Below, one piece after another: positions 9,573-59,116 of a stretch of 64,000 nucleotides of DNA (position 1 is the stretch's first letter; each line of letters starts with the position of its first letter). Origin of the DNA: an uncultured delta proteobacterium (lineage in GTDB: Bacteria > Desulfobacterota > Binatia > Binatales > Binataceae); NCBI GenBank assembly GCA_963783145.1, contig CAWAMM010000009.1, positions 287,717 through 351,716 of the forward strand. The letters are read 5' to 3'. The notes beneath the pieces were generated by a model. The model saw only the letters and a program-made list of their open reading frames with translations, searched no databases and was not told the origin of the DNA. Position numbers and translations under genes: made by a program.

Positions 9573-11393
9573 CTAGGTCGCGGCACTGCGAGCTGATTCA
9601 ATTCGACGGATTTCTTGCGCGCGAGACTTTGCCCGGTCGGCCGCGATACGTGCCGAATCGGTTGCACGGTAAAGCTCCAGCTCCGCGTCGAACTCGTCGT
9701 CATGCACCGGGCTAAGCGCGAGATCGGTGTAGTTCTTTGATGTCGGGTCCTTCTCGATTCTGCGCCGTAAGCGCTCCAACCGCCAGAAATACATGAGTCC
9801 GGGCACGTAGGTTGAGATCATCTCGCCCGCACGCCGGATCGAGAACGTAAGCGGGTTCTCGCGTGGCAGTCCGGGACGTCGCTGCGAGCGCCGCTTGCGC
9901 CGGAGGATTCCCCCCTGAAGAGGATGCACATGTTCATAAAAGTGGCTGGCCGAGAAGTAGAACACCATCGAGGTGATTCGCGAGGTGCGAATCCCGACGG
10001 CTTTGGCGCGCTTGATCAGCGTCTCGATGTGCGCGGGCGTGTAGTAGAGATGCCAGGCGCGACGATAGATGTCCTCCCACTCTTCGGCGCTCATTCGCGG
10101 ATGGTCCGCGGTCGCGTGCTCCGCATCGTAGCGGTTAGTATCGGTTTCCATCCGCTCGCCGCGCAGATACATCTCCTGGTGATCTTTCGATCCAGGCAGC
10201 GGCGTAAGCATGAAGAACTCCATGATATCGATCGGGAGTTCGCGCTGGATAATCTTGATATCGCGCTCGATGCTCTGCGGGGTGTCGGACGGAAATCCGA
10301 GGATATAACCGGCGTAGGTCAGCACTTTGGCGCGCTTCCACGCCTGCAGCATCTTGCGATACTCGGTGATACGGTTCTGGCCTTTGGACGCGCCCTTGAG
10401 GCTTTCGGGATTGATGCTCTCGAGCCCGATAAAAACTTTCTTGCATCCCGCGCGCGCCGCCTTCTCCACAAAGTTGGGGATTTTGTGGCACATCGTATCG
10501 ACCTGCATGATGATGTTGATCTTCAGGCGGTCGCGGCGTTTCAGCTCGATGATGCGATCGAGAATCGATTCCCAGTTCTTGTTGCGGGCGAAGTTATCGT
10601 CGGTGATGAAGAAGCTTTTTACGCCCTGCGCCGAATGAGTCCGAATGAGCCGCTCGATGTCGTCGGCGCTGCGATGGCGCGACTTGCGCCCCTGTACGTT
10701 GATGATCGTACAGAAGCTGCAACTGAAGGGGCATCCGCGACCCGCGTCGAAGCAACCGATCGCGCCAGCATAGCGCTTTACATATCGCATCGGCAGGAAC
10801 GGCAACACCGTACCCTCCATCGCGGGCAAATCGGTCATGAAGTTGTAAAGCGGCTCCAGCCGATCCTCGAAGGCGGCGAGCAGCAGGCTATCGAGACGAT
10901 TTTCGGCCTCGCCCGCGAACAGGGTGATGCCGCGGGCGATTGCGTCTTTCAGCTCAGGCGGCATTTCGGGCAGCATCGCCACGCAACCGCTGACGTGGAA
11001 TCCGCCGATGGCAACCTTGATACCCGCGGTGCGCAACTCCGTGGCGATATCCACCGCGCGCGCGAACTGGTTGGTCTGCACCCCGATCATCAGCACCAGA
11101 CCGCGATTTGCGTTGCGGGCGAACCGGCGGACTATCTTCCGCACCGGGACCCTGGCGTTGGTCTCATCATGCGCGTGGATTTCGATCGCGACCTGCTTGC
11201 CGAGGGTGTGACGATCGCGCGCATCGAGCGCCAAACCGTAGATACTCGACAGCGAATTCGAGGGCACGAAACCCCGCCACCACTGGATGACGTAACCGTC
11301 GTCGTCGTAGTGCGACGGCTTGATTAGCTCGACCAGGAATTTTTCCTGCGTCAGCCTCCGGGCCTGCTCCATTTTTCTCCTGCCGCGATGCAT
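9573..11393 (-). CDS. B12-binding radical SAM protein with long C-terminal extension
   Basis: N-terminal cobalamin-binding region, CPFSCSFC (CxxxCxxC) radical-SAM cluster motif, 606 aa. Confidence 0.75.
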   Translation of the reverse strand: MHRGRRKMEQARRLTQEKFLVELIKPSHYDDDGYVIQWWRGFVPSNSLSSIYGLALDARDRHTLGKQVAIEIHAHDETNARVPVRKIVRRFARNANRGLVLMIGVQTNQFARAVDIATELRTAGIKVAIGGFHVSGCVAMLPEMPPELKDAIARGITLFAGEAENRLDSLLLAAFEDRLEPLYNFMTDLPAMEGTVLPFLPMRYVKRYAGAIGCFDAGRGCPFSCSFCTIINVQGRKSRHRSADDIERLIRTHSAQGVKSFFITDDNFARNKNWESILDRIIELKRRDRLKINIIMQVDTMCHKIPNFVEKAARAGCKKVFIGLESINPESLKGASKGQNRITEYRKMLQAWKRAKVLTYAGYILGFPSDTPQSIERDIKIIQRELPIDIMEFFMLTPLPGSKDHQEMYLRGERMETDTNRYDAEHATADHPRMSAEEWEDIYRRAWHLYYTPAHIETLIKRAKAVGIRTSRITSMVFYFSASHFYEHVHPLQGGILRRKRRSQRRPGLPRENPLTFSIRRAGEMISTYVPGLMYFWRLERLRRRIEKDPTSKNYTDLALSPVHDDEFDAELELYRATDSARIAADRAKSRAQEIRRIESARSAAT

Positions 11394-18141: not shown

Positions 18142-18686
18142 GTTTGCTCGCGGCCTCCTGATTTATGGATTTGAGTTGACGACCTGCGCGGATAGGTGCA
18201 CGGGAAAGAACATAGATAATCGGTCATCTCAGCGTCAACGACTCTTGGCGCCACTACAGGTCTTAGTGTCGGCCTCCCGTCTGCGATGACCGAACTCCCG
18301 GGACGCGTCGGTATCGTTCGCCCGATTGCCGCAGAATTCTCGAGTGAGCGCGAGGAATCTCTGAAGGGGAAGAGCGGCTAGCGGAGAGGAAGGGAACGCA
18401 TCCGGCGGACGCTTCATCCTCGGGCTCGGCGCGGGATGGTTCGAGTTCGAACATCGGAGCCTTCGGATTCGATTTCAAACCGGCGGCGCAGCGCCTCGCA
18501 GCGCTCGACGAAGCGTGCCGAAGTAGTGCGCGCTCTTCTGTTGCATGCGGGAGCTGGCGGCGAGGGTTTCGAAATAATCGACTGGAATCATTCCGGTATT
18601 TGCCGTACGCCTTTTACGAGACCTTTTCACCGAACGTCGTGGATCAGAGGGAGTGGTCTGGCGATGTTGGTCTGAACTCTGAGCTG

Positions 18687-19097
18687 ATGGGAGTCGCACC
18701 GCGAGCGCCGCTTATTTTGTTCGACGGAGTCTGCAATCTGTGCAACGGCTGGGTGAGATTCGTGGTCCGTCGCGATCCTGCCGGAGTGTTTCGCTTCGCT
18801 GCGCAGCAATCGCCTGCCGGTCAGGCGTTGATCGAAGAGCGGATGAGAGGCGCGGTTGAATTGTCCAGCGTGATTCTGATCGTGGATGACGCGGCCTACA
18901 CCGAATCTGACGCCGTGCTCCAGATCCTTGCCCGCCTCGGTCGGCCCTGGTCCTGGGTCGTGTTCTTACGGTTCATTCCGCGTCGAGTCCGCGATGTCTG
19001 CTATCGATTCATCGCCCGTCATCGGTATCGATGGTTCGGGAAAACTGAACTCTGTCAGATCCCATCGCCGGAGATCAGGTCGAGATTCATCGAGTGA
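18687..19097 (+). CDS. DCC-family thiol-disulfide oxidoreductase (DUF393)
   Basis: ILFDGVCNLCNGWVRFVVRRDP signature. Confidence 0.7.
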   Translation: MGVAPRAPLILFDGVCNLCNGWVRFVVRRDPAGVFRFAAQQSPAGQALIEERMRGAVELSSVILIVDDAAYTESDAVLQILARLGRPWSWVVFLRFIPRRVRDVCYRFIARHRYRWFGKTELCQIPSPEIRSRFIE

Positions 19098-19144
19098 TCC
19101 CACGGGCGTATGCCCAAATATCGCTTGCGCAGGAACGTCGAGGC

Positions 19145-19729
19145 TCATCGAACGACCTGGCGGACTGCTCGGTACATCGCCATTTTTGAGCCGTCGGCGA
19201 ATTGCTTTTGCAGCGAACGAGACAGCGGGTACCCGAGTTTCGCCAGCGCGTGCCAGGGGCGCGAAAAAGCGAGAACGTCGTAGCAGACCTTGTCGGTGGC
19301 GCGGTTCCACTCGACCATGAAGCGCTCCTCGCCAGTCTCTGCGTGATCGCGAAGCGTGCCGTAAGCGAAGCCAAATTGGTCGGTAGCTCCGCTCTCGTCG
19401 ACAACGTAGACGATCCGGCATGCGTTCAATGAAAAGAAACCGAAGGCGTGCGCGCAAACGGCAACAACCGCTCCGACCTGTAGCGATGTGTCAGGCCAAT
19501 AGAGACGTACCCACGGGATATTGAACATTTTCCAAGCGCGAACTGCGGCGACCGCGCGCAACCACATCTGTTCGCCGCGGCCGAGCTCAATGCGATTGTG
19601 ATCCACGTTGTAGCCGCCGGGCACAGTGCCGGCCGACGCGCCCACCTCAGGATAGGAAAACTCTGCGTCCTCCTGATTCGCGATGAACCGGCGAACCTCG
19701 TCGTCCGCCGGCCGAGTCAAACGGAACAA
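19145..19729 (-). CDS. DUF1990-like protein
   Basis: 194 aa; FSYPEVGAS...GGY pattern recalled for DUF1990. Low-certainty family call. Confidence 0.45.
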   Translation of the reverse strand: MFRLTRPADDEVRRFIANQEDAEFSYPEVGASAGTVPGGYNVDHNRIELGRGEQMWLRAVAAVRAWKMFNIPWVRLYWPDTSLQVGAVVAVCAHAFGFFSLNACRIVYVVDESGATDQFGFAYGTLRDHAETGEERFMVEWNRATDKVCYDVLAFSRPWHALAKLGYPLSRSLQKQFADGSKMAMYRAVRQVVR

Positions 19730-19958
19730 ATGGCGACGCTCTCCTTTAGCCGATTAGGGGTTGTGGCTACCGAAAACCTCAACCGCGTGACGCGCTGTAG
19801 CGACTGAGGGAGTATAAGACAGGATCTTTGGTTGGGTGATTCGAGTATTCCTGATTCTCCGGCGGTTGCTCAATCGCTGCGCGCAGCGAGAATCAAGCGC
19901 GTCCGCGGAACCGCTTGAATCTTCAGATTTACCCCGAGAATCTCCAATTTAAAGCTGG

Positions 19959-20627
19959 TTGGCGGAGAGGGAGGGGGCCGCCTCGGAATTCGAACGTGGG
20001 GTACGCGATTCCGTCCATACCGTCCTCAAAGACCAATCTGCCCTCGCCACGACATTGCATGATTCAGGCGTGCCCCCGGCAGAGATCCAGTCGATTCTCA
20101 GAACCCTCCAAGCTCTCGATATCTCAGGACAATCGGATCGCTCGGAAACAACGAACCTGGCGCCGGTCGTGAGGAGAGTGGATCTTCGAAAAGACGGGAT
20201 CGAACTGTCAGTTGACCTTGAATCGATCGTTCCGCGTGGTGCCGACTCTCCGCCACTGACGATCACAAGATTCATTCCGCTTCGGATCGGGCGTCGGGGG
20301 GTAGCTATGCGGCTTGTTTTCGGAGGCGGGGTCTCGGCCCGCAAGCCGGATCCCTCACTTTTGAAAGCGGTCGCACGTGGATACCGCTGGTTTCACGAAG
20401 TCATTTCCGATCAAGGTATACTTCCCAGAGATATCGCGGCTCGCGAACGGGTAAACGAACGCTTCGTCCGACGACTAATGCCGCTTGCGTTTCTTGCACC
20501 GGCGGTGATTGAGGCAATCGTGGAAGGACGACAACCCCCCGAACTCACCGGTGAATTCCTCAGCCGCGGTATCGAGATTCCCGTCCAGTGGACGAAGCAG
20601 GCTGCAGCGCTCGGGTTTGCTGATTAA
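19959..20627 (+). pseudogene. Remnant C-terminal portion of a serine recombinase/resolvase-family protein (TTG-initiated ORF, no catalytic N-domain)
   Basis: C-terminal tail ...IEAIVEGRQPPELTGEFLSRGIEIPVQWTKQAAALGFAD resembles tails of recombinase-family proteins. It starts inside the att-like repeat and lacks the catalytic domain. Confidence 0.4.
19960..19995 (+). repeat. attR-like direct repeat of the 3' end of tRNA-Ser
   Basis: tggcggagagggaggg (19960-19975) is identical to 23806-23821, then a 12-nt insertion, then attcgaac matching 23822-23829. Confidence 0.55.
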
Positions 20628-21048
20628 AAGGCCCGCGAGGCCTGCTGCAACATTACTGGTGTTACCGCTTTCACTAGAACTGAGGAACACCGAGCGCAGG
20701 CGGAAGAAGAAACGGCGGAGACCCAAAAAGGTCCCCGGGAGGGTCGGAATCTGCTTCAACCGTTCCTTCTCACGCCGTTGTCCGTGATGTTGATGGTGAC
20801 CCTCGTAACATACTCGATGCGCGCTGTTCTCACACCGAGTAACGCAAACCCGGATTGTCCCATCTGTAAAGCTAACCCTTACTACGGATTCGCAGACTCA
20901 GGACCAACAATCGGCTACGATTCGCCCGCTTGACGGCGATCATGTAACGACGCAGCGCGAGTGCTATCAACTTCGTTGCGGCCGCAAAGACAGGTTTTGC
21001 GTTTGGTTCCGGCACTCCTGCTGGTACTCTTTTTGTCGGAGGTTCGCG

Positions 21049-21369
21049 ATGAGTAACTCGAACCACAGGATCATTTGCACCGATTGCGGACGCGATCAGC
21101 CAGTCGTCGAGGATGCTATATCGAATCCGGCGATCAAGCCTCCGGAACCGACAAGCGCGACCCCGAATCCGCGGAGCACCGCTCGCGCGCATCTCCATGC
21201 GACCCGCGAGAACGACGCCTGCACCGAGAGGGGCAGTATAAACCACATCGACGTAGTTTGCAGAGGTTCTCCAATCTGCGGCATTCATGACAAAACCGAG
21301 TTCCACGATCCGTATCCGAAGTGTCCCGGTGACCACCAGTGGGTGGGCTGCGAGTCCGATGGCGCGTAA
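21049..21369 (+). CDS. Small Cys-rich protein (putative zinc-binding), first gene of a 3-gene island operon
   Basis: GGAGG RBS 7 nt upstream; 106 aa with CxxC...C...C...CxxC...C pattern; stop overlaps next gene's start (ATGGCGCGTAA). Confidence 0.45.
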   Translation: MSNSNHRIICTDCGRDQPVVEDAISNPAIKPPEPTSATPNPRSTARAHLHATRENDACTERGSINHIDVVCRGSPICGIHDKTEFHDPYPKCPGDHQWVGCESDGA

Positions 21370-22135
21370 ACAACAACCTCCACAGACAGCGCCCGATCTG
21401 CCGCCGGAAAAGGCCTACACCGCTCTCAATCGGCAACTCGAAAAACTGAAACAGTTTAACGGGCGCCGATATGAGCAGATGAAAGCCGAAGAAACCGAAT
21501 GGCAGCAGTTCACGGAAAAGCTCGTGATTCGCTCATTCGGCAGCGACAGCCCGAATCATACGAACTTTCGAAATGCGCTGTTTGCTGGCGAGCACTACAT
21601 CCAGATGTGGGGGGAACGAGATCCGACTCTACCGCAGAGAAATTTCGAAGCTCGGCAACAGGAGTGTACAGCGGCGCTGCGGAGCTGCCTATTGGAGCTC
21701 GAACTCGACATCGGTGAAGGGCCAAGGGGCGTTTACGATCAGGGGCAGGAGTATGAGTACTATCGCGACATTTCTGGAATCCTGAAGCTCGCACAAAAAG
21801 AAATCTTCATAGCGGACCCATATTTGAATAAGGAAATTTTCGAAGTGTACGCCGATGTTATCGACCGAAGCGTGCACTTCCGTTTGCTCGGCACGAACAC
21901 ACCCGCCGACGTTAAAGCAATCGCGCAGATGTATGCGTCAGGCCGCAATTTTGAATTCCGTCAGAGTTCGGCTTTTCATGATAGGGTCCTGTTCGCGGAC
22001 GATCGCGTATGGCTTTCCGGGCAGTCGATTAAGGACGCCGCGAAGAAGAAGCCAACTTACATCGTGGAGCACGACGAGAAGCTGATGCGGCCGGTTTACG
22101 AGACCATATGGCAGTCTGCGACGGTGCTGATCTGA
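21359..22135 (+). CDS. Hypothetical protein (island operon gene 2)
   Basis: 258 aa from ATG 21359, translationally coupled to the upstream gene; no recognised motif. Confidence 0.5.
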   Translation: MARKQQPPQTAPDLPPEKAYTALNRQLEKLKQFNGRRYEQMKAEETEWQQFTEKLVIRSFGSDSPNHTNFRNALFAGEHYIQMWGERDPTLPQRNFEARQQECTAALRSCLLELELDIGEGPRGVYDQGQEYEYYRDISGILKLAQKEIFIADPYLNKEIFEVYADVIDRSVHFRLLGTNTPADVKAIAQMYASGRNFEFRQSSAFHDRVLFADDRVWLSGQSIKDAAKKKPTYIVEHDEKLMRPVYETIWQSATVLI

Positions 22136-23139
22136 TCGTGGCGCCTCAGAAGTCCAAAGGCCGCTCGCCGGGTCCAGCTGGTGTTTCCGAGATCGAAGAT
22201 GGCTTCGCGTTGAGGAAGCTCCGATCGCTAGCCGCCGCCGAGAAATCCCGCACTCCGGAAGCGACGGACCAGTGCGCAATACCGGCCCCGCTGGCGAAGC
22301 ATATTCTTTCTAGCTACACGCTCGCTAATCCGACTAGCAAACGCGCTGTTTCCGATTACGTCTGGACGCAGGCTCGTGGTGAGAAGGTGTTGCACGCCGA
22401 GAAGGTGAAGACCGAACGCGCATTGGGCAGCGATCACGATTGTTGGGATGTTCATACAAATGCTGATCGCTATTGGGTGATAACCTCGCCGACGAATCTG
22501 TATTCGCAGCACGACTTCCCCAGCCTGGACTTCACGCTCTCGTTTCACATCGGTGTTACTGCTCGGATAGTGGAGCGCTCGCGCGGCGCACCGAACGACG
22601 CCCAAAAGGCGAGAATGCCACCGGTATGGCGACGGTGGGAGCAAGCCGCCGAGACGCTGGATATGGCGCAGGAGGCTGAAGATTTTCAGGCGGTGGGCAT
22701 GAAGTGTCGCGAATGCCTCCTCGAACTCGTACGCTCGCTTTCGCGACCTGGGATAGTGCCGTCCGGCGAAGATCCCCCACAGGGAAGTAACTTCTTAGCG
22801 TGGTCGGGATTCATCGCAAACAACGTGGCAGCAGGAACGAGCGCAGATCGAATCCGAGGGCATCTGAAATCCACCGCAAAATCGGCGTGGGAATTGGCGA
22901 GCTGGTTGACGCACGCAACCGGAGCCGGACATCACGATGCTGAATTCGTCCTCGACGCGACCCACAACGTAATCGCAATTTTCGGACAGGCGGTCATCCG
23001 GCATGAGAGCGGGATGCCGGAGCGCTGCCCCAGGTGCAGCTCGTACAATCTCGACGTGGGCTTCAATCCTGAACTGGCCCGTCCGTACGTTACCGAATGC
23101 GAAGAGTGCGGCTGGCAGAGTCCGGTCGCCGAGAAATGA
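22108..23139 (+). CDS. Hypothetical protein with C-terminal zinc ribbon (island operon gene 3)
   Basis: 343 aa; overlaps gene 2 by 28 nt; C-terminal CPRCSS...CEECGW. Confidence 0.5.
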   Translation: MAVCDGADLIVAPQKSKGRSPGPAGVSEIEDGFALRKLRSLAAAEKSRTPEATDQCAIPAPLAKHILSSYTLANPTSKRAVSDYVWTQARGEKVLHAEKVKTERALGSDHDCWDVHTNADRYWVITSPTNLYSQHDFPSLDFTLSFHIGVTARIVERSRGAPNDAQKARMPPVWRRWEQAAETLDMAQEAEDFQAVGMKCRECLLELVRSLSRPGIVPSGEDPPQGSNFLAWSGFIANNVAAGTSADRIRGHLKSTAKSAWELASWLTHATGAGHHDAEFVLDATHNVIAIFGQAVIRHESGMPERCPRCSSYNLDVGFNPELARPYVTECEECGWQSPVAEK

Positions 23140-23805
23140 CTAGTCTAACAGACTCACTTTTGGCGGCGGACATTGCCAAATCACCTAGTTCGCTGCTTCG
23201 GTTAACAGCTTCTCTCTGGCCTTATTGAGCCGAGATACAATTGATGCATGCAATGTCTCCAGCTACGACTGTCATCTTCCCGCGGCAGTGATCGAGATGG
23301 TCAAGCACGGATTCAAAATCCGGATAGTCGTCACGGATAAACTCGATTGGTCAAAGGGCTACAAGGAGGGACGCAGAGACTCCCCACGGTCCATCCCGAA
23401 GCCGATCTGTCAGATTACGTGGCTGGAATGCCGTTTCCGCTGGTGGACACAGCTTTGGCTATTCGGGTTCGGGCGCGGCAACAAAGCAGGTACGGCGAGC
23501 CGCACTTCCCTTCGTCTGCGATCAGTTCAGCGTCATCCGCATCGCAGCGAGGTAGGAACTCGCCAAACCGGCTCCTTCCAGCAGGGCGCCAACGGCTTTG
23601 CCCCGACACGCCCTCATTTGAACGGCCTCCGAAATTTCGCCTGATTTGTCACGGCACCAGCAGAAATTAAATCAGAGAAAAAGCTCTCGGATTCCTCCAT
23701 TGCCGGCTTGTGCGGCTTTCTCTGGTGCCGTTAGTGATCCAAAATCGGCCCGAAAAGCGGCGATTTTGAGAAAATTTGTGAAGAATCTAGGATCCGACGG
23801 ACTGA

Positions 23806-23896
23806 GTGGCGGAGAGGGAGGGATTCGAACCCCCGGAGCCGTTAGGCTCACCTGATTTCGAGTCAGGCCGGTTAAACCAAACTCCCGAACCTCTCC
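23806..23896 (-). tRNA. tRNA-Ser (anticodon CGA), class II with long variable arm
   Basis: Reverse complement folds as GGAGAGG acceptor, 3-bp D-stem, CCTGA/TCAGG anticodon stem with loop CTCGAAA, 16-nt variable arm, T-arm GGGGGTTCGAATCCCTC, discriminator G and CCA. Confidence 0.9.
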
Positions 23897-52590: not shown

Positions 52591-52971
52591 GTGCCGCGAA
52601 CCAGAGTGGTCTTTTACCGCGAGGCTGACGGGGCAGTTCCCCTGCTCGATTGGTTTGATGGGCTTCCGACCAAAGCCCAGGACAAATGCCGGATCAAAAT
52701 CCAGCGGCTAGCGGAACTGGGATATGAATTGCGGCGACCCGAGGCAGATCTGCTCCGCGACGGTATTCATGGATTGCGCGTTGGACTCCACCACGTAAAC
52801 TATCGGATTCTTTATTTCTTTTCCGGACGAGAGGCAGTCATTTTGGCGCACGGCTTGACCAAACTGAACCGAGTTCCTGAGACAGCGATCGAAACAGCGC
52901 TCAAGCGAAAACGAAACTTTGAGCAAGATGCCGAGCTTCACACATTGGAAGAGCCGCACGCCCGCTCTTGA
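52591..52971 (+). CDS. higB: HigB-like (Gp49/RelE-ParE superfamily) toxin
   Basis: RILYFFSGREAVILAHGLTK motif of Gp49-like killer proteins; HTH gene 10 nt downstream. Confidence 0.65.
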   Translation: MPRTRVVFYREADGAVPLLDWFDGLPTKAQDKCRIKIQRLAELGYELRRPEADLLRDGIHGLRVGLHHVNYRILYFFSGREAVILAHGLTKLNRVPETAIETALKRKRNFEQDAELHTLEEPHARS

Positions 52972-52981
52972 GGCAACTCAC

Positions 52982-53317
52982 ATGAAACGATCAGGTAAAA
53001 AATCTCTGACCAGCGACGCCATCGAAATAATTCATCGCCGCTACTACCAGGGCCGTCCCCAGCGAATCGCCGGCTTGGCCGAAGCGGAAGCCAACGACAC
53101 GGTGGCGCGCAAAATTTATCGAATCCGCAAGCGCGCAGGGCTCACTCAGCAACAACTGGCCAAGCTGGTCAGCACCACTACCTCGGTCATTTCGAGGCTG
53201 GAAGACGCCGATTACGAAGGGCACTCGCTGACGATGCTGCACCGCATCGCCGCGGCGTTGGACAAGCGGCTTGAGGTTCGCTTCGTGAGCGTCGGGCGCA
53301 AGACGAGAGTGGCATAG
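52982..53317 (+). CDS. higA: HigA-like XRE-family HTH antitoxin
   Basis: RKRAGLTQQQLAKLVSTTTSVISRLE HTH_3 motif; ATG 10 nt after higB stop. Confidence 0.65.
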   Translation: MKRSGKKSLTSDAIEIIHRRYYQGRPQRIAGLAEAEANDTVARKIYRIRKRAGLTQQQLAKLVSTTTSVISRLEDADYEGHSLTMLHRIAAALDKRLEVRFVSVGRKTRVA

Positions 53318-53402
53318 GGAAGGGTGCCCACCCCGCTCATCTGCAAGTGGCGCAGACTTCAGTCTGTGCTTCCAAATCCACAAAGGACACAGGCTGAAGC
53401 CT

Positions 53403-53696
53403 GTGCTACCTTCAGAGCTGATTTGTCGTCATGAAAAGCGCCTGCCAAAATTCAAGAATGAGGATGCGGAACGGAAGTTCTGGGCCTCGCACGATTCGAC
53501 CGAATACATCGATTGGCGTGGGGGCAAGCGCACCATCTTTCCCAATTTGAAGCCGACCTCGCAGACGATTTCCCTGCGCCTGCCCAAACCGATGCTCGAG
53601 CGCCTCAAGCAACTCGCGAATAAGAGAGATGTTCCCTATCAATCATTATTGAAGATGTTCGTCGCGGATCGGCTCAAAGCCGAATTGGGCGATTGA
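53403..53696 (+). CDS. brnA: BrnA/CopG-like antitoxin-family protein, orphan (no BrnT/DUF497 partner)
   Basis: KFKNEDAERKFWASHDSTEYIDW...ISLRLPKPMLERLKQLANKRDVPYQSLLKMFVADRL matches the recalled BrnA-type antitoxin family. Confidence 0.6.
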   Translation: MLPSELICRHEKRLPKFKNEDAERKFWASHDSTEYIDWRGGKRTIFPNLKPTSQTISLRLPKPMLERLKQLANKRDVPYQSLLKMFVADRLKAELGD

Positions 53697-53809
53697 GGTT
53701 GTCCGCGCGACCTTCCGATCTTTGCGCTTGAGCGAGCCCCACTTTTTGTCATTCTGAGGTGAGCGCGCAGCGCACCGCCGAAGAATCTCGATCCTTGCGA
53801 ACACCACCG

Positions 53810-53950
53810 CCTCGCGTGGCGACCGTTACCATCTCGCGCCCGCCCGCGCATCGAGGATTTCCCGACCGCGCGGCTCCGCAGGCAGGGATGGCACGCCGGT
53901 CGCAAAGAGAAACCGAGCGCGACCGCCGCGCCATCCCGCCCCCCGCCGCT
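53810..53950 (-). repeat. Partial inverted copy D of the 192-bp repeat
   Basis: ...ggatggcacgccggtcgcaaagagaaaccgagcgcgaccgccgcgccatcccgcc aligns to the reverse complement of copy B. Confidence 0.6.
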
Positions 53951-53995
53951 CTGCATTGGCTACTCTTCCGACATTCAAACTTGCGCCCAAATTGA

Positions 53996-54421
53996 CTACC
54001 GAGCGGCCGTGTGGGCCTCGCGAAGCCGTCTCTCTTCTTCCGCCTTCGTGGCTTCGCGGGTCAGGCGCTCAGCACGGTCTTGCTGTGCGATTCGGCGTCC
54101 GAAAGTGAAGACAAAAATCCCCGCTGCAATAGCCACCCACAGCGGCATCAGCGAGACAATCACAAATGGCGTGAAAAACTGTGACATCGTTAACGCGGCT
54201 CACCGGCGACGTTCCAAAACCATACCGAACCACTCCAGAAATGCGCTGCCGATGACGCCCGCGACAAGAATTACCATAATCTGAACTCGCGAAAGAGACA
54301 ATTGATCCTCCGCGATGCCGAGCCCTAAATCCAAAGGTATGAAGACCAGAAACAGAACTGCCGCCTCACGAAAGGTGTCGCCGAGCATCTCGGCGTTTCC
54401 CCTTGGCGCATGTTCATCCAC
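53996..54421 (-). CDS. Two small adjacent membrane-protein ORFs (73 aa + 63 aa), possibly a disrupted single gene
   Basis: Hydrophobic helices in both ORFs (54200-54421 and 53996-54187), only a 12-nt gap between them; no motif recognised. Confidence 0.25.
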
Positions 54422-54487
54422 AAACAGTCGTGATACCAGAACGATCAGTTAGCCACAAGCGTAAAAATCACTCCCTCTGGATGTCAA

Positions 54488-54619
54488 ACGATTTCCCTGC
54501 GCCTGCCCAAACCGATGCTCGAGCGCCTCAAGCAACTCGCGAATAAGAGAGATGTTCCCTATCAATCATTATTGAAGATGTTCGTCGCGGATCGGCTCAA
54601 GGCCGAATTGGGCGATTGA
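54488..54619 (+). pseudogene. Duplicated 3' fragment of the brnA-like gene (part of a ~237-bp segmental duplication)
   Basis: 54488-54727 is near-identical to 53564-53800; it encodes ...ISLRLPKPMLERLKQLANKRDVPYQSLLKMFVADRLKAELGD* without a 5' half. Confidence 0.6.
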
Positions 54620-54962
54620 GGTTGTCCGCGCGACCTTCCGATCTTTGCGCTTGAGCGAGCCCCACTTTTTGTCATTCTGAGGTGAGCGCGCAGCGCGCAG
54701 CGGAAGAATCTCGATCCTCGCGAATGCAACCGTCGCACGCGAAAACCGCCCCGCTCGGATTCTCCACTCTCTGTCATTCCGGGGGAGCCTTGCGAGTCGA
54801 AGGATCTACGCGAAGCGTCGACCTATACGGCCCGCAACTACCCGAACGGCGCCGCCGCTCGAGTCTTTGTTGCCCTAGGTAGACCCCAGCAAATAAAGAA
54901 TCCCCTCCTCGGCCGTACGTCTCACACGCTCAAACAGACCCTCGTCTTTCCCAAGCAGGCTT

Positions 54963-56042
54963 GTGAATTTAAGACTTGGCCATTCAACCCGGTTGGGTTG
55001 CGCAGCGGGCAAAAGTCTGGCTTCCTCGAAGAGAGGTGCAAAGAAATTGATCTCAGAAAGTGACGCGGATCACGCATACGTTCGCCTCAAGGAGCTGCTA
55101 GAGAAGAAGGCCCTCTTTCGTCGTTCAGATCCAAAGCTAAGCGAGGCCGACACTCGCGCTAAATTGATCGATCCCCTCTTCCGCGATGTCCTCGGATGGC
55201 CGGAAGTAGAAATCCGAAGAGAAAAGCCGGTTGACAGCGGGTTCGCGGACTATGTTTTAGGTGCGGACGTAGCGTTCCTATTGGTCGAGGCAAAGAGGAC
55301 CAATCCACGTTTTCACATAGATGCGCCAACCCGACCGCGGAAGGTGCGCTTGGACGGGCCCCACCTCTTGGGGCAAAAAAAAGTGAAACCTCTCATAGAG
55401 CAGGTACAGGCTTATGCGAGCTCGCAGGGGGCTCAGTTCGCGATTCTGACAAATGGATCTCAGTTAGTGATTTTCAAGCCCTATCTTCCCGGGCGTTCTT
55501 GGTCGACTGGAACCGCCATCGTATTTCATGACCACGACGACATCGTCCAAGACTTCGCGCTGTTCCACCGGCTGCTTTCAAGAGATCGGGTCTATGCAGG
55601 TTCCCTGTTGGAGGAGTTCGAACAAATCGAAGGCATCACTACAACGTTCTATACGCCAATACAATTTCTCGATGATCCTGATGCCGAATTAGTACGAAAT
55701 CCGCTCTGGATAAAGATCGCGACCGTGTTAAGTCCCCTGTTCACCGACAATTTTGAAGATCCAGCTTTGCAACGCGAGATAATTGAAAATTGCTACGTGA
55801 CCACACCGCTCTCTGACCAAGCAGACGCTAGTCTCGACCGAAGGATAAGAGACACGCTCCCTATCAGCCTGAAAAACGCCGGAATTCAGGAGCTGGCACC
55901 CGGCTCCGGAATGCACAGCGCCTTCGGCCAGGGTTTAGAAAAGGACATTAGTATCCTCTCGTCGTCCAGGTACTTACGTTCTGACCGGCGGAGTGGGGAG
56001 CGGGAAGACAACGTTTTTGCGGCGTTTCGTCATGATTGGTAG
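54963..56042 (+). CDS. HsdR_N/Mrr-like PD-(D/E)xK restriction-endonuclease-fold protein
   Basis: SEADTRAKLIDPLFRDVLGW...ADYVLG...FLLVEAKR...AQFAILTNGSQLVIF matches the HsdR N-terminal nuclease domain pattern. The last ~20 aa are R-rich and look off-frame. Confidence 0.6.
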   Translation: MNLRLGHSTRLGCAAGKSLASSKRGAKKLISESDADHAYVRLKELLEKKALFRRSDPKLSEADTRAKLIDPLFRDVLGWPEVEIRREKPVDSGFADYVLGADVAFLLVEAKRTNPRFHIDAPTRPRKVRLDGPHLLGQKKVKPLIEQVQAYASSQGAQFAILTNGSQLVIFKPYLPGRSWSTGTAIVFHDHDDIVQDFALFHRLLSRDRVYAGSLLEEFEQIEGITTTFYTPIQFLDDPDAELVRNPLWIKIATVLSPLFTDNFEDPALQREIIENCYVTTPLSDQADASLDRRIRDTLPISLKNAGIQELAPGSGMHSAFGQGLEKDISILSSSRYLRSDRRSGEREDNVFAAFRHDW

Positions 56043-57513
56043 AGGATTTGTTGAGAACTACTGCATCTGGACACACGTCGACTTCCTTCCGTTTGGAAAT
56101 ATCGACCAAAACGTGGTCGATTCAGAAGTCCGCAGTTTTGTCTACCGACAAATCAGAAACGAGTTGGTGCGTTTGTATTCATCCAATATCCCGAGCAGCG
56201 GTTCGGAAATCCGTCAGCTGTTCTCAAGCGAGCTCGAGCGAGCGGAGAGAACGAAGCTTTATTCGATACCTCCAGATTCTCCAGAGTGGACCAAAGAAGT
56301 GAACGCTATCGTCGAGGCGCTTTATTCCGACGATGCGGCATTCGTAGACGCTCTTTTGAGAAAATTCGTCACCGGCGGTCTTCGACCGGTTTTCGTCTTA
56401 GATAACACCGATCAGTTGGGAGAACAATTTCAGGAAAGAGTTTTCCTTCTAGCCCAGAAGCTATCTCAGGAGCATAAGGCTCTTTCGATCGTAGCCTTGC
56501 GGGAAGAAAAGTTTTTTGCCGCTTTCCGACGCGGCATCTTCGATGCCTTTGGAGATAGGAGGTTTCATATTGGTTCGCCGGATCTCCGTAAGGTTCTCCA
56601 AAGGCGGCTCAACTACGGCCGCGAGAAGTTCCAACGGATCATGCAGGAAGGAAATTACCTGTCTAAGGAGGAGCTGCTAGATATTGATACCCTGCTGGAT
56701 GTACTCATTCGGTCCACCACTTCAGGTAATGCGAACATAGTTCGGATGCTGGCCTGTGTATCTAACGGCGACATGAGACATGCCCTTGATATGTTCCGGG
56801 AGTTCGTCAGTTCCGGAAACACCAACGTTAGTAAGATTATGAGTATAGGACGCGGCTACAAGGTGGCATTTCATGAGTTCGCCAAGTCAGCGATTCTCGG
56901 CTCCCGAAAGTACTATCGTAGCAACGTTTCGCACGTAGTAAATCTGCTTAAACCCTCGGCTGCTCGCCGGGCATCTCACTTGACTGCCATCAGAACACTA
57001 GCGAGACTTTCTCGCGCTGAAGAGGCTTCGTCACCCCACGGGGAGGGTTTTGTAAAGACAAAATCGCTTTTGCGAGAATACCGAGAATCGTTCGGTATTG
57101 CGGAGGACTTTCAAGAATGGGCCAACGAGCTCTTGCTACGTGGTCTCATAGAATCGGAGCCTCCACGGGTCGAAGGACTGGATAAGGCCGAGGCGCTAAG
57201 AATTACCGCGTCGGGAGCTTACTATTGGAAGTATCTTGTTCGAGCGTTTGCGTACATGGACTTGGTGTTTGTCGATACGCCCATCGAGGACAAGAATCTA
57301 GCCCACGAGCTCGCAAACCTCTCGGACGAGAACGACATGCCAGCTCGCTTTAAGAGGGTTCGGCTGTTTATGGACTACCTTGAAAAAGAGGAGAGGAGGG
57401 AGCTTTTGGAGGCAGCCCGGCGGACGGGACCTTATCAGGAGTCGCTGATGGGCCAAGTTCGAGAGCAGATCGAGGAGGAGATCCGCGTGATATCCAGCAA
57501 ACTGGATCTCTAA
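55993..57513 (+). CDS. P-loop NTPase (Walker A/B) with large C-terminal helical domain; probably the C-terminal part of a frameshifted fusion
   Basis: Frame continues upstream to stop at 55936 as RRPGTYVLTGGVGSGKTTFLRRF (Walker A); Walker B VFVLDNTDQ; GTG start lies inside the P-loop. Confidence 0.65.
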   Translation: MGSGKTTFLRRFVMIGRGFVENYCIWTHVDFLPFGNIDQNVVDSEVRSFVYRQIRNELVRLYSSNIPSSGSEIRQLFSSELERAERTKLYSIPPDSPEWTKEVNAIVEALYSDDAAFVDALLRKFVTGGLRPVFVLDNTDQLGEQFQERVFLLAQKLSQEHKALSIVALREEKFFAAFRRGIFDAFGDRRFHIGSPDLRKVLQRRLNYGREKFQRIMQEGNYLSKEELLDIDTLLDVLIRSTTSGNANIVRMLACVSNGDMRHALDMFREFVSSGNTNVSKIMSIGRGYKVAFHEFAKSAILGSRKYYRSNVSHVVNLLKPSAARRASHLTAIRTLARLSRAEEASSPHGEGFVKTKSLLREYRESFGIAEDFQEWANELLLRGLIESEPPRVEGLDKAEALRITASGAYYWKYLVRAFAYMDLVFVDTPIEDKNLAHELANLSDENDMPARFKRVRLFMDYLEKEERRELLEAARRTGPYQESLMGQVREQIEEEIRVISSKLDL

Positions 57514-58018
57514 GTCCGGTGGAATTACAATCATGGTGCGCGCAACGATCGAGATTTTTCGGCGGCGCGCTGCGCGCGCCGCGGAATGACATGAGGCAGA
57601 AGCAGCCTCGCTCGGGTGACAGACGAGGAAAGCATGGCAGCCGACGAAGATTCTAAGCGAGCGGTGGGTGAACCGCCCCTATCAAGAATTGGCTACAGGA
57701 TTTGTCCGGAGACCAGAATTCCGAAGTCGCGCGCGGCGCGCTGAATAAGGTCCCACTCCAGCGCCATCAGATGGCGCAACCTCTCCCATCGGGAGAGGGG
57801 CAGGCACATCGCTGCGCGGAGGTCCCTCGCCTCGCAAGGCTCGCTCGGGATGACATACGGCGGTTGTGGTCGCCGCGAAAATCCTGGGGCGCGCAACAAT
57901 CGAGATTCTTCGGCTGCGCGCTTTGCGCTCCCCTCATGTAATTTCCACTGGATCGCGTTTTCATCATTCGCACGCTATTCTTTCCGCGATTTATCGCGCG
58001 GTATTTTTCGGCGCGCGA

Positions 58019-58552
58019 ATGATGGAGGACCTGAAGGAAATGTTTTGCCGTTCTCGCGATGTAGCTGCTCTTCCGATCCTGTGCCTGGCGATGCTGGCGC
58101 TGGCGGCGTGCGCATCCAACACCGCCACGCCCGCGCCTCCTCCCTTCAACCCCACGGCCGGGTTTCCCGTGCAGCCTCCGGTCGTTCCGAACCTCAATCA
58201 ACAGATTCTGGGCAATTGGTCCGCGAGCTATCCCGGCGGGCCGTTTCGCGTGGCGATTCAAAACGATCCGCTGCTCGGTGGCACCAACTATATTGCCACC
58301 CTCATCGATGGCGGATATGGCAGCTTTCATGCCGGCTCCATCGTATTCAAGGCGACGCCCGATCAAGTCGTCCCGAATCTCGTAGTTGGAACGCAAAAGT
58401 GTCCGGACCCTGGTTACGCCGGGCCTTATGACGTGTCGATGACGATAACTGTCATCGATGCCAACGATTTCACCGAAGACCTGGTGCATAAGACTGCTTG
58501 CCATGGGTTTCCGGTGAAGTTCACCCGGATCGCTGCGTCCGGGTCACCCTAA
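58019..58552 (+). CDS. Lipoprotein of unknown function
   Basis: Signal peptide with lipobox LAAC; P-rich linker. Confidence 0.5.
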   Translation: MMEDLKEMFCRSRDVAALPILCLAMLALAACASNTATPAPPPFNPTAGFPVQPPVVPNLNQQILGNWSASYPGGPFRVAIQNDPLLGGTNYIATLIDGGYGSFHAGSIVFKATPDQVVPNLVVGTQKCPDPGYAGPYDVSMTITVIDANDFTEDLVHKTACHGFPVKFTRIAASGSP

Positions 58553-58687
58553 GAAAGTTGTCTTTTTCCTTTTTCCCTCTCCTGAAGGGAGAGGGTGGCG
58601 CTACTGCGCCGGGTGAGGTCTGCCAATGACGGCCTCGTCCCGTTGTGTTACAACCGTGCGGCAAGATCCGATGCAGGGGAACTTGTG

Positions 58688-59116
58688 ATGATGGAGTTGA
58701 GAATGCGCAAGGCGATACGAACCACAGCGATGATAACGTTGATGCTCGCTCTGGCGGGATGTACACATAATCCGATGCTGGGCAAGTGGACTATCGCGAG
58801 CCGCGACAAGGAGGCCGATGCTTCTTACCTCGATGAGCTTACCACTAATGTCAGAAAGTCAACCGGCGCGACTACTATCGAGTTCCTTAAGGATTCGATT
58901 GTGACCAGCGGTGGCCCGCAGGACCACACCATCACCGGGGTCACCTATATCATCACCGAACTGGAGGGCGGCGCCACCGACGTGCAAATCGTACAGGCGC
59001 GCAAGAGCGACCCGGATAACAATGATGTCGACGTTTGCCACATCGACAAGACCGGCAACACCGCGCAACTCGAATCGCGCACCGAGGTGCTGGGGCTTAC
59101 CCGCGCAGGGCAATGA
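58688..59116 (+). CDS. Small lipoprotein of unknown function
   Basis: MMELRMRKAIRTTAMITLMLALAGC lipobox. Confidence 0.5.
   Translation: MMELRMRKAIRTTAMITLMLALAGCTHNPMLGKWTIASRDKEADASYLDELTTNVRKSTGATTIEFLKDSIVTSGGPQDHTITGVTYIITELEGGATDVQIVQARKSDPDNNDVDVCHIDKTGNTAQLESRTEVLGLTRAGQ

What the first reader, a model, noticed from the sequence alone, without database searches (positions are those of the whole stretch)
19960..23896. ~3.9-kb genomic island integrated at tRNA-Ser(CGA), delimited by a direct repeat of the tRNA 3' end
The 3'-terminal 16 nt of the minus-strand tRNA-Ser (plus-strand tggcggagagggaggg, 23806-23821) recur exactly at 19960-19975. A 12-nt insertion and then attcgaac (matching 23822-23829) follow. 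This is the classic attL/attR signature of site-specific integration into a tRNA gene. Between the repeats the GC content drops visibly (e.g. 23160-23300). The first ORF, 19959-20627, starts with TTG inside the repeat. It looks like only the C-terminal tail of a serine-recombinase-family protein (…IEAIVEGRQPPELTGEFLSRGIEIPVQWTKQAAALGF) with no catalytic N-domain, i.e. a decayed mobility gene. Flanking genes (DUF1990, cytochromes) look like core genome.
Basis: partly seen in the sequence, partly recalled or inferred. Interest (0 to 1): 0.7.

Follow-up and report, generated by a model that had tools for sequence, protein, structure and literature searches.

The report
Decayed recombinase island at tRNA-Ser
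A 3.8-kb piece of foreign DNA sits at the end of a serine tRNA gene. Some strains of the same species have it and others lack it. It is the worn-down remnant of a mobile element that carried probable anti-virus genes, which is a common kind of thing, though the element family itself seems undescribed.

Summary
TGGCGGAGAGGGAGGG occurs exactly at 19960-19975 and at 23807-23822, the 3' end of tRNA-Ser(CGA).

The island reading is strongly supported. Four independent assemblies of the same species carry an empty site with one copy of the 16-mer. They differ from the window by exactly 3,847 bp.

ORF 19959-20627 is the C-terminal ~215 aa of a large serine recombinase (LSR). No catalytic part is left anywhere in the window.

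Five other loci with this LSR family share one layout: LSR, then 0-6 kb of cargo, then a conserved ~165-nt non-coding module, then the tRNA-Ser 3' end. The window matches it (module 23637-23806). So the fragment is probably the island's own dead integrase.

The cargo is a PLD-fold, Nuc-like protein (PADLOC candidate PDC-S05), a widespread ~321-aa zinc-ribbon protein, and a 106-aa ORF.

- 'attcgaac' lies in recombinase codons.
- The compositional shift is not significant.
- DUF1990 probably lies in an older island, bounded by a decayed att remnant at 18317-18395.

This is an ordinary, non-autonomous tRNA island. The closest precedent is the Dehalococcoides ssrA islands.

The parts
19960..19975 (.). 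Distal direct repeat: a displaced copy of the last 16 nt of tRNA-Ser (pseudo-tRNA).
   Evidence: Exact 16/16 match. The empty-site alleles keep only one copy.
19976..20627 (+). 5'-truncated gene for a large serine recombinase. Only the C-terminal ~215 codons remain (the mechanical ORF is 19959-20627 with TTG inside the repeat). Probably the island's own inactivated integrase.
   Evidence: 106 homologues; the longer ones carry PF07508 or PF00239 upstream. tblastn homology starts at 19977. PHROG 14161 'recombinase' at 8e-18. The same family lies next to tRNA-Ser in L035, L044, L021, L022 and L023.
20628..21048 (.). Spacer with no convincing gene.
   Evidence: Only short ORFs. No similarity to the module.
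21049..21369 (+). 106-aa Cys-rich ORF, function unknown. It overlaps the next gene by 11 nt.
   Evidence: ORF list. Called as a gene on conspecific contigs. No hit in Pfam, NCBIfam, PADLOC or PHROGs.
21359..22135 (+). 258-aa cargo protein: N-terminal helical domain plus C-terminal PLD-fold (Nuc-like) domain with an HxR...D...GxS motif. Candidate defence gene.
   Evidence: PADLOC PDC-S05 at 2.4e-13. AlphaFold2 pLDDT 92.7. Foldseek matches to Nuc 1byr, NucT 6ehi, Zucchini and TrmBL2 at E 1e-5 to 1e-7. Conserved H207, R209, D214, G221, S223.
22108..23139 (+). 343-aa ORF; homologues suggest a true protein of ~321 aa starting near 22174. Conserved family of unknown function with a C-terminal CxxC...CxxC zinc ribbon.
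   Evidence: More than 1,000 homologues at 60-76% identity. Invariant Cys pairs. Neighbours elsewhere include Abi_C, SduA_C and DUF2924+LSR. No fold match; pLDDT 59.7.
23140..23636 (.). Non-coding stretch between the cargo and the module.
   Evidence: No ORF with a family hit.
23637..23806 (-). Conserved ~165-nt non-coding module directly downstream of the tRNA 3' end. It includes an inverted repeat, CGGCACCAGAGA ... TCTCTG-N12-CTGGTGCCG. It is part of the LSR islands' integration end; function unknown.
   Evidence: nhmmer E 1.3e-21 with a model built without the window. Found next to tRNA-Ser in 26 other loci. Found downstream of the LSR in L021, L022 and L023 at E ~1e-43. No Rfam hit. No covariation.
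23807..23896 (-). Intact tRNA-Ser(CGA). Its last 16 nt (23807-23822) are the proximal copy of the repeat.
   Evidence: ARAGORN. Rfam RF00005 at 48.7 bits. Identical in filled and empty alleles.
18317..18395 (-). Older, decayed attachment remnant: 17 nt of the tRNA 3' end with 2 mismatches, plus the first ~30-60 nt of a module.
   Evidence: 14/16 match at 18379-18394. Adjacent nhmmer hit 18373->18317 at E 0.011. 47-nt local alignment scores 49 against 16.7 +/- 2.3 for shuffles.
18396..19959 (.). Inferred older island of the tandem array, carrying the DCC1-like gene (18600-19097, +) and DUF1990 (19145-19729, -). Fixed in all alleles seen.
   Evidence: Bounded by the remnant at 18317-18395 and the repeat at 19960. 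Its tRNA-side end resembles the start of the module. Present in every conspecific contig. This is inference only.

Best explanation
Region 19976-23806 plus one copy of the 16-mer is the remnant of an integrative element. The element inserted by site-specific recombination into the 3' end of tRNA-Ser(CGA).

The element belongs to a family built as: (DUF2924 gene) - large serine recombinase reading towards the tRNA - 0 to 6 kb of cargo - a ~165-nt conserved non-coding module - a copy of the tRNA 3' end. On integration, the element's copy of the tRNA end rebuilds an intact tRNA. The chromosome's original end is pushed to the far side, where it becomes the direct repeat.

In this window a later deletion removed the distal part of the element, including the DUF2924 gene and the catalytic two-thirds of the recombinase. 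That deletion ran from within or at the displaced tRNA end into the recombinase gene. This is why the recombinase tail is flush with the repeat, and the 16 nt may be only what is left of a longer pseudo-tRNA.

The island can no longer move by itself. It could still be lost or moved by a related recombinase acting in trans, or by recombination between the repeats. It is one unit of a tandem array at this tRNA.

Shown: the repeat, the exact indel polymorphism, the recombinase homology, and the shared architecture. Inferred: that the LSR was the integrase, the deletion history, and the defence role of the cargo.
For: - Exact 16-mer repeat, far above chance.
- Empty-site allele in four independent assemblies, differing by exactly 3,847 bp with one core copy. 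Filled allele in at least four others. Flanks are 99.6-100% identical.
- A third allele, L014, has the same tRNA and cytochrome but a different module type.
- Recombinase homology.
- L035 was found by a DNA pattern alone. A Resolvase+Recombinase+CTD protein of the same family (E 3e-36) ends 257 nt before an intact tRNA-Ser(CGA), with a module in between.
- L044 has the same family followed by a 231-aa ORF, a module and a pseudo-tRNA.
- All three loci fetched only by protein homology to the fragment (L021, L022, L023) carry a module 0.2-5.9 kb downstream in the same orientation, at E 5e-44 to 8e-43.
- Cargo in the same position elsewhere is defence-like. L023 has HamA plus a helicase. A contig with DUF2924-LSR upstream of a homologue of the 343-aa ORF has SduA_C and a methyltransferase.
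- The window's 258-aa cargo protein has a PLD-fold, PDC-S05-like domain.
- The remnant at 18317-18395 supports a tandem array.
- Precedent: Dehalococcoides ssrA islands, with an LSR next to the att site, a 20-bp repeat, tandem islands, and some islands without an integrase (PMC3146451).
Against: - No complete member of the family with both ends was recovered, so the natural repeat length and the distal arm are unknown.
- The recombinase fragment lies at the far end of the island, not next to the tRNA as in L035 and L021. The cargo-in-between layout rests on L022, L023 and L044.
- The module also occurs next to tRNA-Ser with no LSR nearby and with housekeeping-looking neighbours (L025, L027, L028, L048). 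It may be native flank rather than element DNA.
- Composition gives no support for foreign origin.
- Whether the empty allele is ancestral or the product of excision cannot be told.
- All comparison sequences are metagenome assemblies.
Confidence: 0.7

Rival explanations
1. The island was integrated by a tyrosine integrase of the classical tRNA-targeting kind (P4-like) that has since been lost. On this reading the serine recombinase fragment is unrelated debris of another element nested in the island.
For: A 16-20-nt repeat of a tRNA 3' end is the textbook footprint of tyrosine integrases (established knowledge). Other element types do use tRNA-Ser genes with the same 3' end. L039 has an integrase-like N-terminal ORF beside tRNA-Ser(UGA). 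L042, L043 and L045 have a 20-nt pseudo-tRNA. L041 is a conjugative element with a 58-nt pseudo-tRNA.
Against: No integrase remnant lies between 23140 and 23806. The LSR family is linked to the module and to tRNA-Ser in five independent loci, three of them chosen without reference to the tRNA. That linkage is very unlikely for a passenger gene.
Confidence: 0.12
2. The repeat is not a recombinase footprint. DNA from a donor strain (tRNA, module, cargo, part of an LSR gene) entered by homologous recombination in the tRNA/cytochrome region on one side. On the other side it joined by an illegitimate event inside the recipient's tRNA end, which left 16 duplicated bases by accident.
For: This would explain why the recombinase gene is cut flush with the repeat, why no integrase is present, and why the tRNA-side end looks like the flank seen beside tRNA-Ser in other species. 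There is an 8-nt coincidence, GGTTGGCG, between the chromosomal flank plus core and the homologous point of LSR genes.
Against: The older remnant at 18349-18395 ends at almost the same tRNA position (17 nt), which suggests repeated use of one site. Other islands (L031, L032, L021) show recurrent, identical pseudo-tRNA junctions. The microhomology predicts a junction that lacks the 11 tRNA bases actually present.
Confidence: 0.08
3. The attachment site lies inside the recombinase gene, so integration splits the gene. This is what happens to SSV-type integrases of archaeal viruses, and it was raised as a possibility for DsiB in Dehalococcoides. The tail at 19976-20627 would be the C-terminal half, and it would rejoin its N-terminal half only in the circular form.
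For: Recombinase homology begins within one base of the end of the repeat. In Dehalococcoides the LSR gene dsiB overlaps attL/attP.
Against: The other end of the island holds the non-coding module, not an N-terminal recombinase part. The reconstructed circle has a TGA stop directly before the tail's frame. No N-terminal part exists in the window. In L035 and L021 the LSR is complete upstream of the module, so the family is not split by integration.
Confidence: 0.03

Closest known systems
Dehalococcoides ssrA-specific genomic islands (ssrA-GIs) with the large serine recombinase DsiB (McMurdie et al. 2011, PMC3146451)
   Same: Integration into the 3' end (T-arm region) of a small stable RNA gene. 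A short direct repeat of that end lies at the far boundary (20 bp there, 16 bp here). An LSR sits at the RNA-gene-proximal end and reads towards it. Islands form tandem arrays, and some lack an integrase and may be mobilised in cis.
   Different: The target is tRNA-Ser, not tmRNA. The recombinase is a different LSR lineage, paired with a DUF2924 gene rather than DsiA/ParB/Mom. A ~165-nt conserved module lies between cargo and att site. The cargo looks defence-related rather than dehalogenase. The member in this window has lost its catalytic domain.
Classical tRNA-associated genomic islands with P4-type tyrosine integrases (e.g. HPI at asn tRNA, E. coli PAIs)
   Same: An intact tRNA at one end, a 16-20-nt repeat of its 3' end at the other, accessory cargo, and presence/absence between strains.
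   Different: No tyrosine integrase or remnant is present. The associated recombinase is a serine recombinase. There is no clear compositional deviation.
Cis-mobilizable elements (CIMEs) and site-specific accretion (ICESt1/ICESt3 of Streptococcus thermophilus)
   Same: Flanked by att-type repeats but encoding no working recombinase or transfer genes. Sits in a tandem array at a hotspot, and so could be moved only by a related element in trans.
   Different: No cognate active element was identified in this genome, and mobility in trans is untested.
Integrase-adjacent defence hotspots and defence islands on integrative elements (e.g. pipolins, PMC11551731)
   Same: Variable defence-type cargo (PLD-like nuclease here; Hachiman-like, Shedu-domain and Abi genes in relatives) sits between a conserved integration module and a tRNA att site.
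   Different: Different integration machinery. Defence activity of this cargo is untested, and the 321-aa family is in no defence catalogue searched.

Membership tests
tRNA-integrated genomic island | Intact tRNA gene at one boundary | tested here: met
   tRNA-Ser(CGA) 23807-23896 by ARAGORN. Rfam 48.7 bits.
tRNA-integrated genomic island | Direct repeat of the tRNA 3' end at the other boundary | tested here: met
   16/16 at 19960-19975. Expected 0.04 matches at up to 2 mismatches.
tRNA-integrated genomic island | Empty site (one repeat copy, flanks contiguous) in close relatives | tested here: met
   L002, L003/L011, L004/L012 and L060. The difference is exactly 3,847 bp.
tRNA-integrated genomic island | Functional integrase gene inside the island | tested here: not met
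   Only the C-terminal ~215 aa of an LSR remain. There is no Resolvase or Recombinase domain and no N-terminal part in the window.
tRNA-integrated genomic island | Composition different from the host genome | tested here: not met
   GC at the 9th percentile, dinucleotide signature at the 48th, tetranucleotide distance exceeded by 14% of windows.
Large serine recombinase (the ORF 19959-20627 product) | N-terminal catalytic resolvase domain (PF00239) with the active-site serine | tested here: not met
   No Pfam hit. The alignment shows the ORF starts after the zinc-ribbon motif YRYYVSR of full-length relatives.
Large serine recombinase (the ORF 19959-20627 product) | Recombinase domain (PF07508) and zinc ribbon | tested here: not met
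   Absent from the ORF and from the window.
Large serine recombinase (the ORF 19959-20627 product) | Homology to the C-terminal region of bona fide LSRs | tested here: met
   57% identity to the tail of the L021 DUF2924-linked LSR. 34% identity to the L035 LSR, which carries PF00239 and PF07508. PHROG 14161 at 8e-18.
LSR-cargo-module-tRNA-Ser island family (defined here) | LSR on the same strand, upstream of a ~165-nt module that abuts the tRNA-Ser 3' end | tested here: met
   Window: tail 19976-20627 (+), module 23637-23806, tRNA from 23807. Same order in L035, L044, L021, L022 and L023.
Cis-mobilizable element (CIME) | att repeats at both ends with no recombinase or transfer genes | tested here: met
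Cis-mobilizable element (CIME) | Excision or transfer promoted in trans by a cognate element | not testable with these tools
   Needs experiments or read-level data. The attP-type junction was not found in viral contigs.
SSV-type partitioned recombinase gene | The N-terminal half of the same gene at the opposite end of the integrated element, in frame across the att core in the circular form | tested here: not met
   The opposite end is the non-coding module. A TGA stop precedes the tail's frame in the reconstructed circle. No N-terminal part is present.
PLD superfamily (the 21359-22135 product) | PLD fold with an HxK(x)4D(x)6GSxN-type motif | tested here: inconclusive
   The fold is met: Foldseek to Nuc, NucT and Zucchini at probability 1.00. 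The motif is a variant, H207-x-R209...D214...G221-x-S223, with Arg in place of Lys. Catalytic competence is unknown.
Structured RNA (the module) | Covarying base pairs or a match to a described RNA family | tested here: not met
   No Rfam match. The covariation term is +0.18 and 1 of 15 pairs has a double change. The 5' arm was fixed by the search pattern, so this test is weak.

The most novel reading that the evidence does not exclude
The LSR, the variable cargo slot and the ~165-nt module together define an undescribed family of tRNA-Ser-specific, serine-recombinase-driven defence islands in Binatia-like soil and peat bacteria. In this reading the module is a functional cis element, such as an accessory recombination site, a circularisation-dependent regulatory region, or an RNA. 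Every element carries it and so duplicates it at each integration. That would explain why it follows both tRNA-Ser and its pseudo-copies in tandem arrays.
Probability: 0.3. Interest if true: 0.55.

Novelty: new member of a known kind. Interest (0 to 1): 0.35.

Why it matters
For this window the result is mainly housekeeping. It marks 19960-23806 as accessory, strain-variable DNA, and probably 18396-19959 too, and it shows the tRNA-Ser locus to be an integration hotspot.

The wider value is modest but real. The work ties one lineage of large serine recombinases to a defined natural target, the 3' end of tRNA-Ser genes. Serine integrases with known natural targets are sought as genome-engineering tools.

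It also points to a cargo slot that collects candidate anti-phage genes. One of these is a very widespread ~321-aa zinc-ribbon protein of unknown function. Finally, it exposes a conserved 165-nt non-coding element whose role is open.

Tried and rejected
- **Clustered homologue lengths.** I asked whether the 210-227-aa lengths of many recombinase-tail homologues mean the gene is regularly cut at the att site. They do not. L021, L022 and L023 show frameshifted or IS-interrupted full-length genes.
- **Split recombinase gene (SSV-like).** Rejected: no N-terminal half is present, and there is a stop codon in the reconstructed circle.
- **'attcgaac' as part of the att site.** Rejected: it lies in recombinase codons and is not needed to explain the indel.
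- **Module remnant downstream of the recombinase stop (20628-21060),** which would indicate two fused elements. No similarity above shuffles.
- **The module as a structured RNA.** No Rfam hit, fold z-score -1.5, and no covariation.
- **The module as a sigma-70 promoter or terminator.** Nothing above background.
- **Synteny of the flanking genes in the six MAG loci.** None found.
- **Fold of the 343-aa protein.** The model is of mediocre confidence and has no significant PDB match.
- **PDB sequence search for the 258-aa protein.** Nothing with the single sequence. A profile gave only weak TrmBL2 and FAM83 hits. The fold search resolved it.
- **attP-type junction in viral contigs.** None found.
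- **Compositional evidence for foreign origin.** Not significant.
- **Literature on DUF2924-linked recombinases.** One incidental paper only.

Full report
**1. The observation**

ARAGORN finds a single tRNA in the window, tRNA-Ser(CGA), at 23807-23896 on the minus strand. Rfam confirms it at 48.7 bits.

The last 16 nt of the tRNA are the CCA, the discriminator base, the 3' acceptor strand and the 3' T-stem strand. On the plus strand they read TGGCGGAGAGGGAGGG at 23807-23822. The same 16-mer occurs exactly at 19960-19975.

Allowing two mismatches, the window holds three matches where 0.04 are expected. The third, at 18379-18394, becomes relevant in section 7.

The 12-nt insert followed by attcgaac, and the TTG-initiated ORF 19959-20627, are in the sequence as described.

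**2. Is it an island? The empty site**

I looked up contigs that encode exactly the same DUF1990 protein, cytochrome and methyltransferase as the window.

- Four independent assemblies carry an empty site: ENA ERZ25039528, ERZ25039491 and ERZ25039522, and JGI 3300055389. They are loci L002/L054, L003/L011/L055, L004/L012/L056 and L060.
- In the empty site the left flank ...aaagctggt runs directly into TGGCGGAGAGGGAGGG-attcgaaccc... of the tRNA.
- DUF1990 and the cytochrome gene are 413 bp apart there, against 4,260 bp in the window. The difference of 3,847 bp equals the repeat-to-repeat distance.
- BLAST shows that the two flanks overlap by just the 16-mer.
- The filled allele occurs in ERZ25039493, ERZ25039507, two Logan runs and a JGI contig, at 99.5-99.98% identity.
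- A third allele, L014, has the same tRNA and an identical cytochrome. A different sequence follows the tRNA.

So the segment is a strain-variable indel bounded exactly by the repeat.

**3. Composition**

The island is 56.4% GC against 59.2% for the window. That is 1.4 sd below the mean of equal-sized windows, at the 9th percentile.

The dinucleotide signature is unremarkable (48th percentile). The tetranucleotide distance is exceeded by 14% of other windows. GC3 of the island ORFs (0.57-0.68) overlaps that of the neighbouring genes.

The compositional argument therefore fails, though this does not weaken the indel evidence.

**4. The recombinase fragment**

- Pfam and NCBIfam find nothing in ORF 19959-20627.
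- A database search returns 106 homologues. Sources that name them call them site-specific recombinases, and the longer ones carry PF07508 or PF00239.
- The alignment places the ORF after the YRYYVSR zinc-ribbon motif of full-length proteins.
- PHROG 14161 'recombinase' matches at 8e-18.
- tblastn with the nearest full-length relative (L021, a DUF2924 gene plus Resolvase-Recombinase-tail, 57% identity) starts at 19977. That is one base after the repeat. No N-terminal part is found anywhere in the 64 kb.

The 'attcgaac' lies in codons E-F-E of this homology; relatives read GAACTGGAAC there. It is best seen as coincidence.

Many homologues are 210-227 aa long. These turned out to be frameshifted or IS-interrupted full-length genes, not a regular truncation.

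**5. The tRNA-side end: a conserved module**

The 170 nt next to the tRNA (23637-23806) share short motifs at identical spacing with the L014 flank.

I scanned one genome per species, and then the metagenomes, with the pattern CTCTGGTGCC-N72-82-core. This gave 6 and 20 loci. In them, tRNA-Ser(CGA), tRNA-Ser(GCT) or a pseudo-copy of their shared 3' end is followed by an alignable ~165-nt element. The MAGs are labelled Deltaproteobacteria, Candidatus Binataceae (phylum Binatota) and Marinacidobacterales.

The element contains an inverted repeat: TCTCGCGGCACCAGAGAC ... GTCTCTG-N12-CTGGTGCCGCGAGA. It matches no Rfam family. It shows no covariation, and the window copy does not fold unusually well (z = -1.5). 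Its function is unknown.

**6. Link between the recombinase, the module and tRNA-Ser**

Two loci found by the DNA pattern alone carry the same recombinase family on the strand that reads towards the tRNA:
- In L035, a Resolvase+Recombinase+tail protein ends 257 nt before an intact tRNA-Ser(CGA). It gives tblastn E 3e-36 to the window's fragment.
- In L044, the recombinase is followed by a 231-aa ORF, the module and a pseudo-tRNA.

Conversely, all three loci fetched purely by protein homology to the fragment carry a module downstream in the same orientation:
- L021: module 170 nt after the stop codon (E 5e-44), followed by a 31-nt pseudo-tRNA.
- L022: module 5.9 kb downstream (E 5e-43).
- L023: module 4 kb downstream (E 8e-43). 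A HamA-plus-helicase pair, which is Hachiman-like, lies in between.

A further contig has DUF2924-LSR followed, a few genes on, by a homologue of the window's 343-aa ORF and a Shedu-domain gene.

The family layout is therefore LSR, then cargo, then module, then the tRNA-Ser 3' end. The window has exactly this order: tail 19976-20627, cargo 21049-23139, module 23637-23806, tRNA from 23807.

This makes the fragment the likely remnant of the island's own integrase. It parallels the Dehalococcoides ssrA islands. There, the serine recombinase DsiB sits beside and overlaps the att site. A 20-bp repeat marks the far end, islands lie in tandem, and some lack an integrase (PMC3146451).

**7. Tandem array**

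A module model built without the window hits 23804-23637 (E 1e-21). It also hits 18373-18317 weakly (E 0.011), directly beside the 14/16 core copy at 18379-18394.

A 47-nt local alignment of tRNA end plus module start scores 49 there, against 16.7 +/- 2.3 for shuffles. The flank left of 19960 also resembles the start of the module.

In L031, the order is tRNA, module, a 5-kb island without an integrase, a 31-nt pseudo-tRNA, and a second module.

L048 and L041 are an empty/filled pair for a conjugative element at tRNA-Ser(GCT), with a 58-nt pseudo-tRNA.

I infer that 18396-19959, which carries the DCC1-like and DUF1990 genes, is an older island. It is fixed in all alleles seen. I also infer that tRNA-Ser genes sharing this 3' end are a hotspot used by several element types.

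**8. Why the fragment is flush with the repeat**

The simplest account is one internal deletion. It would run from within the displaced tRNA end into the recombinase gene. In that case the 16 nt are what remains of a pseudo-tRNA of unknown original length. The flush junction is then partly an ascertainment effect, because without a surviving repeat the island would not have been noticed.

A recombinase-mediated event at a secondary site, or an illegitimate join during transfer, cannot be excluded. There is an 8-nt coincidence, GGTTGGCG, between the attB flank plus core and the homologous point of LSR genes.

A split-gene (SSV-like) model is rejected. The other end of the island is non-coding. 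The reconstructed circle has a TGA stop before the tail's frame. L035 and L021 have complete genes upstream of the module.

**9. Cargo**

- **ORF 21359-22135 (258 aa).** It hits the PADLOC candidate PDC-S05 at 2.4e-13. It has over 1,200 representative relatives. The AlphaFold2 model is confident (pLDDT 92.7). Its C-terminal domain matches Nuc, NucT, Zucchini and TrmBL2. The conserved motif is H207-x-R209, D214, G221-x-S223.
- **ORF 22108-23139.** It belongs to a family of more than 1,000 proteins of ~321 aa at 60-76% identity, with two invariant Cys pairs at the C-terminus. The family is found beside Abi_C, Shedu-domain genes, transposases and the same LSR family, and in a few viral contigs. 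No fold match was obtained.
- **The 106-aa ORF.** No hits.

A defence role for the cargo is an inference from context only.

**10. Verdict**

This is a genuine but ordinary tRNA-associated island. It is non-autonomous, with a dead serine-recombinase gene. It is a new member of a known kind.

The points of wider interest are three. First, the inferred LSR target, the tRNA-Ser 3' end. Second, the cargo slot. Third, the unexplained 165-nt module.

Main caveats:
- All comparison DNA is metagenomic.
- No complete family member was recovered.
- Whether the empty allele is ancestral or derived is unknown.

Noticed in passing
window 18317-18395: A decayed copy of the tRNA-Ser 3' end (17 nt, 2 mismatches) followed by the first ~30-60 nt of the conserved module. 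It implies that the DCC1-like and DUF1990 genes (18600-19729) lie in an older island.
   Followed up: partly
window 23637-23806; also L014, L021-L049: A ~165-nt conserved non-coding module always directly follows tRNA-Ser (CGA or GCT) or its pseudo-copies. It has a 14-bp inverted repeat, TCTCGCGGCACCAG / CTGGTGCCGCGAGA. There is no Rfam match and no covariation, and its function is unknown. It also occurs where the neighbouring genes look housekeeping (L025, L027, L028, L048).
   Followed up: partly
window ~52750-58800: This region has the lowest GC (about 0.534-0.546) and the largest tetranucleotide deviation in the window. It is more deviant than the island under study and may be another foreign segment.
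   Followed up: no
L041 1966-11846 versus L048: An empty/filled pair for a conjugative element at tRNA-Ser(GCT). The element carries VirB9-, VirB10-, TraF-, VirD4- and VirB11-like ORFs, named from my reading of the translations. It leaves a 58-nt pseudo-tRNA that ends in the anticodon loop. The same P450 gene and module lie on the other side in both loci.
   Followed up: partly
L031 2400-7516: A 5-kb integrase-less island at tRNA-Ser(CGA), carrying a large AAA-type/STAND-like ORF pair. It is flanked by the tRNA plus a module on one side and a 31-nt pseudo-tRNA plus a second module on the other. L032 and L021 share its distal arm (…CGGTACCGCGAGC…GGGCGGAATTCAGCCCGA…).
   Followed up: partly
L023 5204-9033: A HamA-domain gene and a DEAD/Helicase_C gene (Hachiman-like pair) occupy the cargo slot between an IS-truncated LSR and the module. 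Only 7 nt of the tRNA end remain after the module.
   Followed up: no
L021 ~10000-10056: The closest full-length relative of the recombinase has a 1-nt frameshift exactly at the GWRL codons, the same point where the window's gene is cut. Several other homologues (P0005, P0006, P0010) also start within about 10 codons of it. This could be a domain boundary, a slippery spot, or an assembly artefact.
   Followed up: no
L016-L020 (conspecific short contigs): Many short-read contigs that carry the cytochrome gene end 121-181 nt upstream of it, that is, inside or just beyond the tRNA. This fits assembly breaks caused by the polymorphism, or by the 3' end being shared among tRNA-Ser genes.
   Followed up: no
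L039 3638-4327: An ORF resembling the N-terminal part of a tyrosine integrase lies next to tRNA-Ser(UGA), which has the same 16-nt 3' end. L042, L043 and L045 show a 20-nt pseudo-tRNA of that type. Several recombinase classes therefore use this site.
   Followed up: no
window 22174-23139 and P0107-P0226: The ~321-aa zinc-ribbon protein family is very large and unusually well conserved (60-76% identity across more than 100 clusters). It has no Pfam, PADLOC or PHROG assignment and sits in variable mobile or defence contexts.
   Followed up: partly
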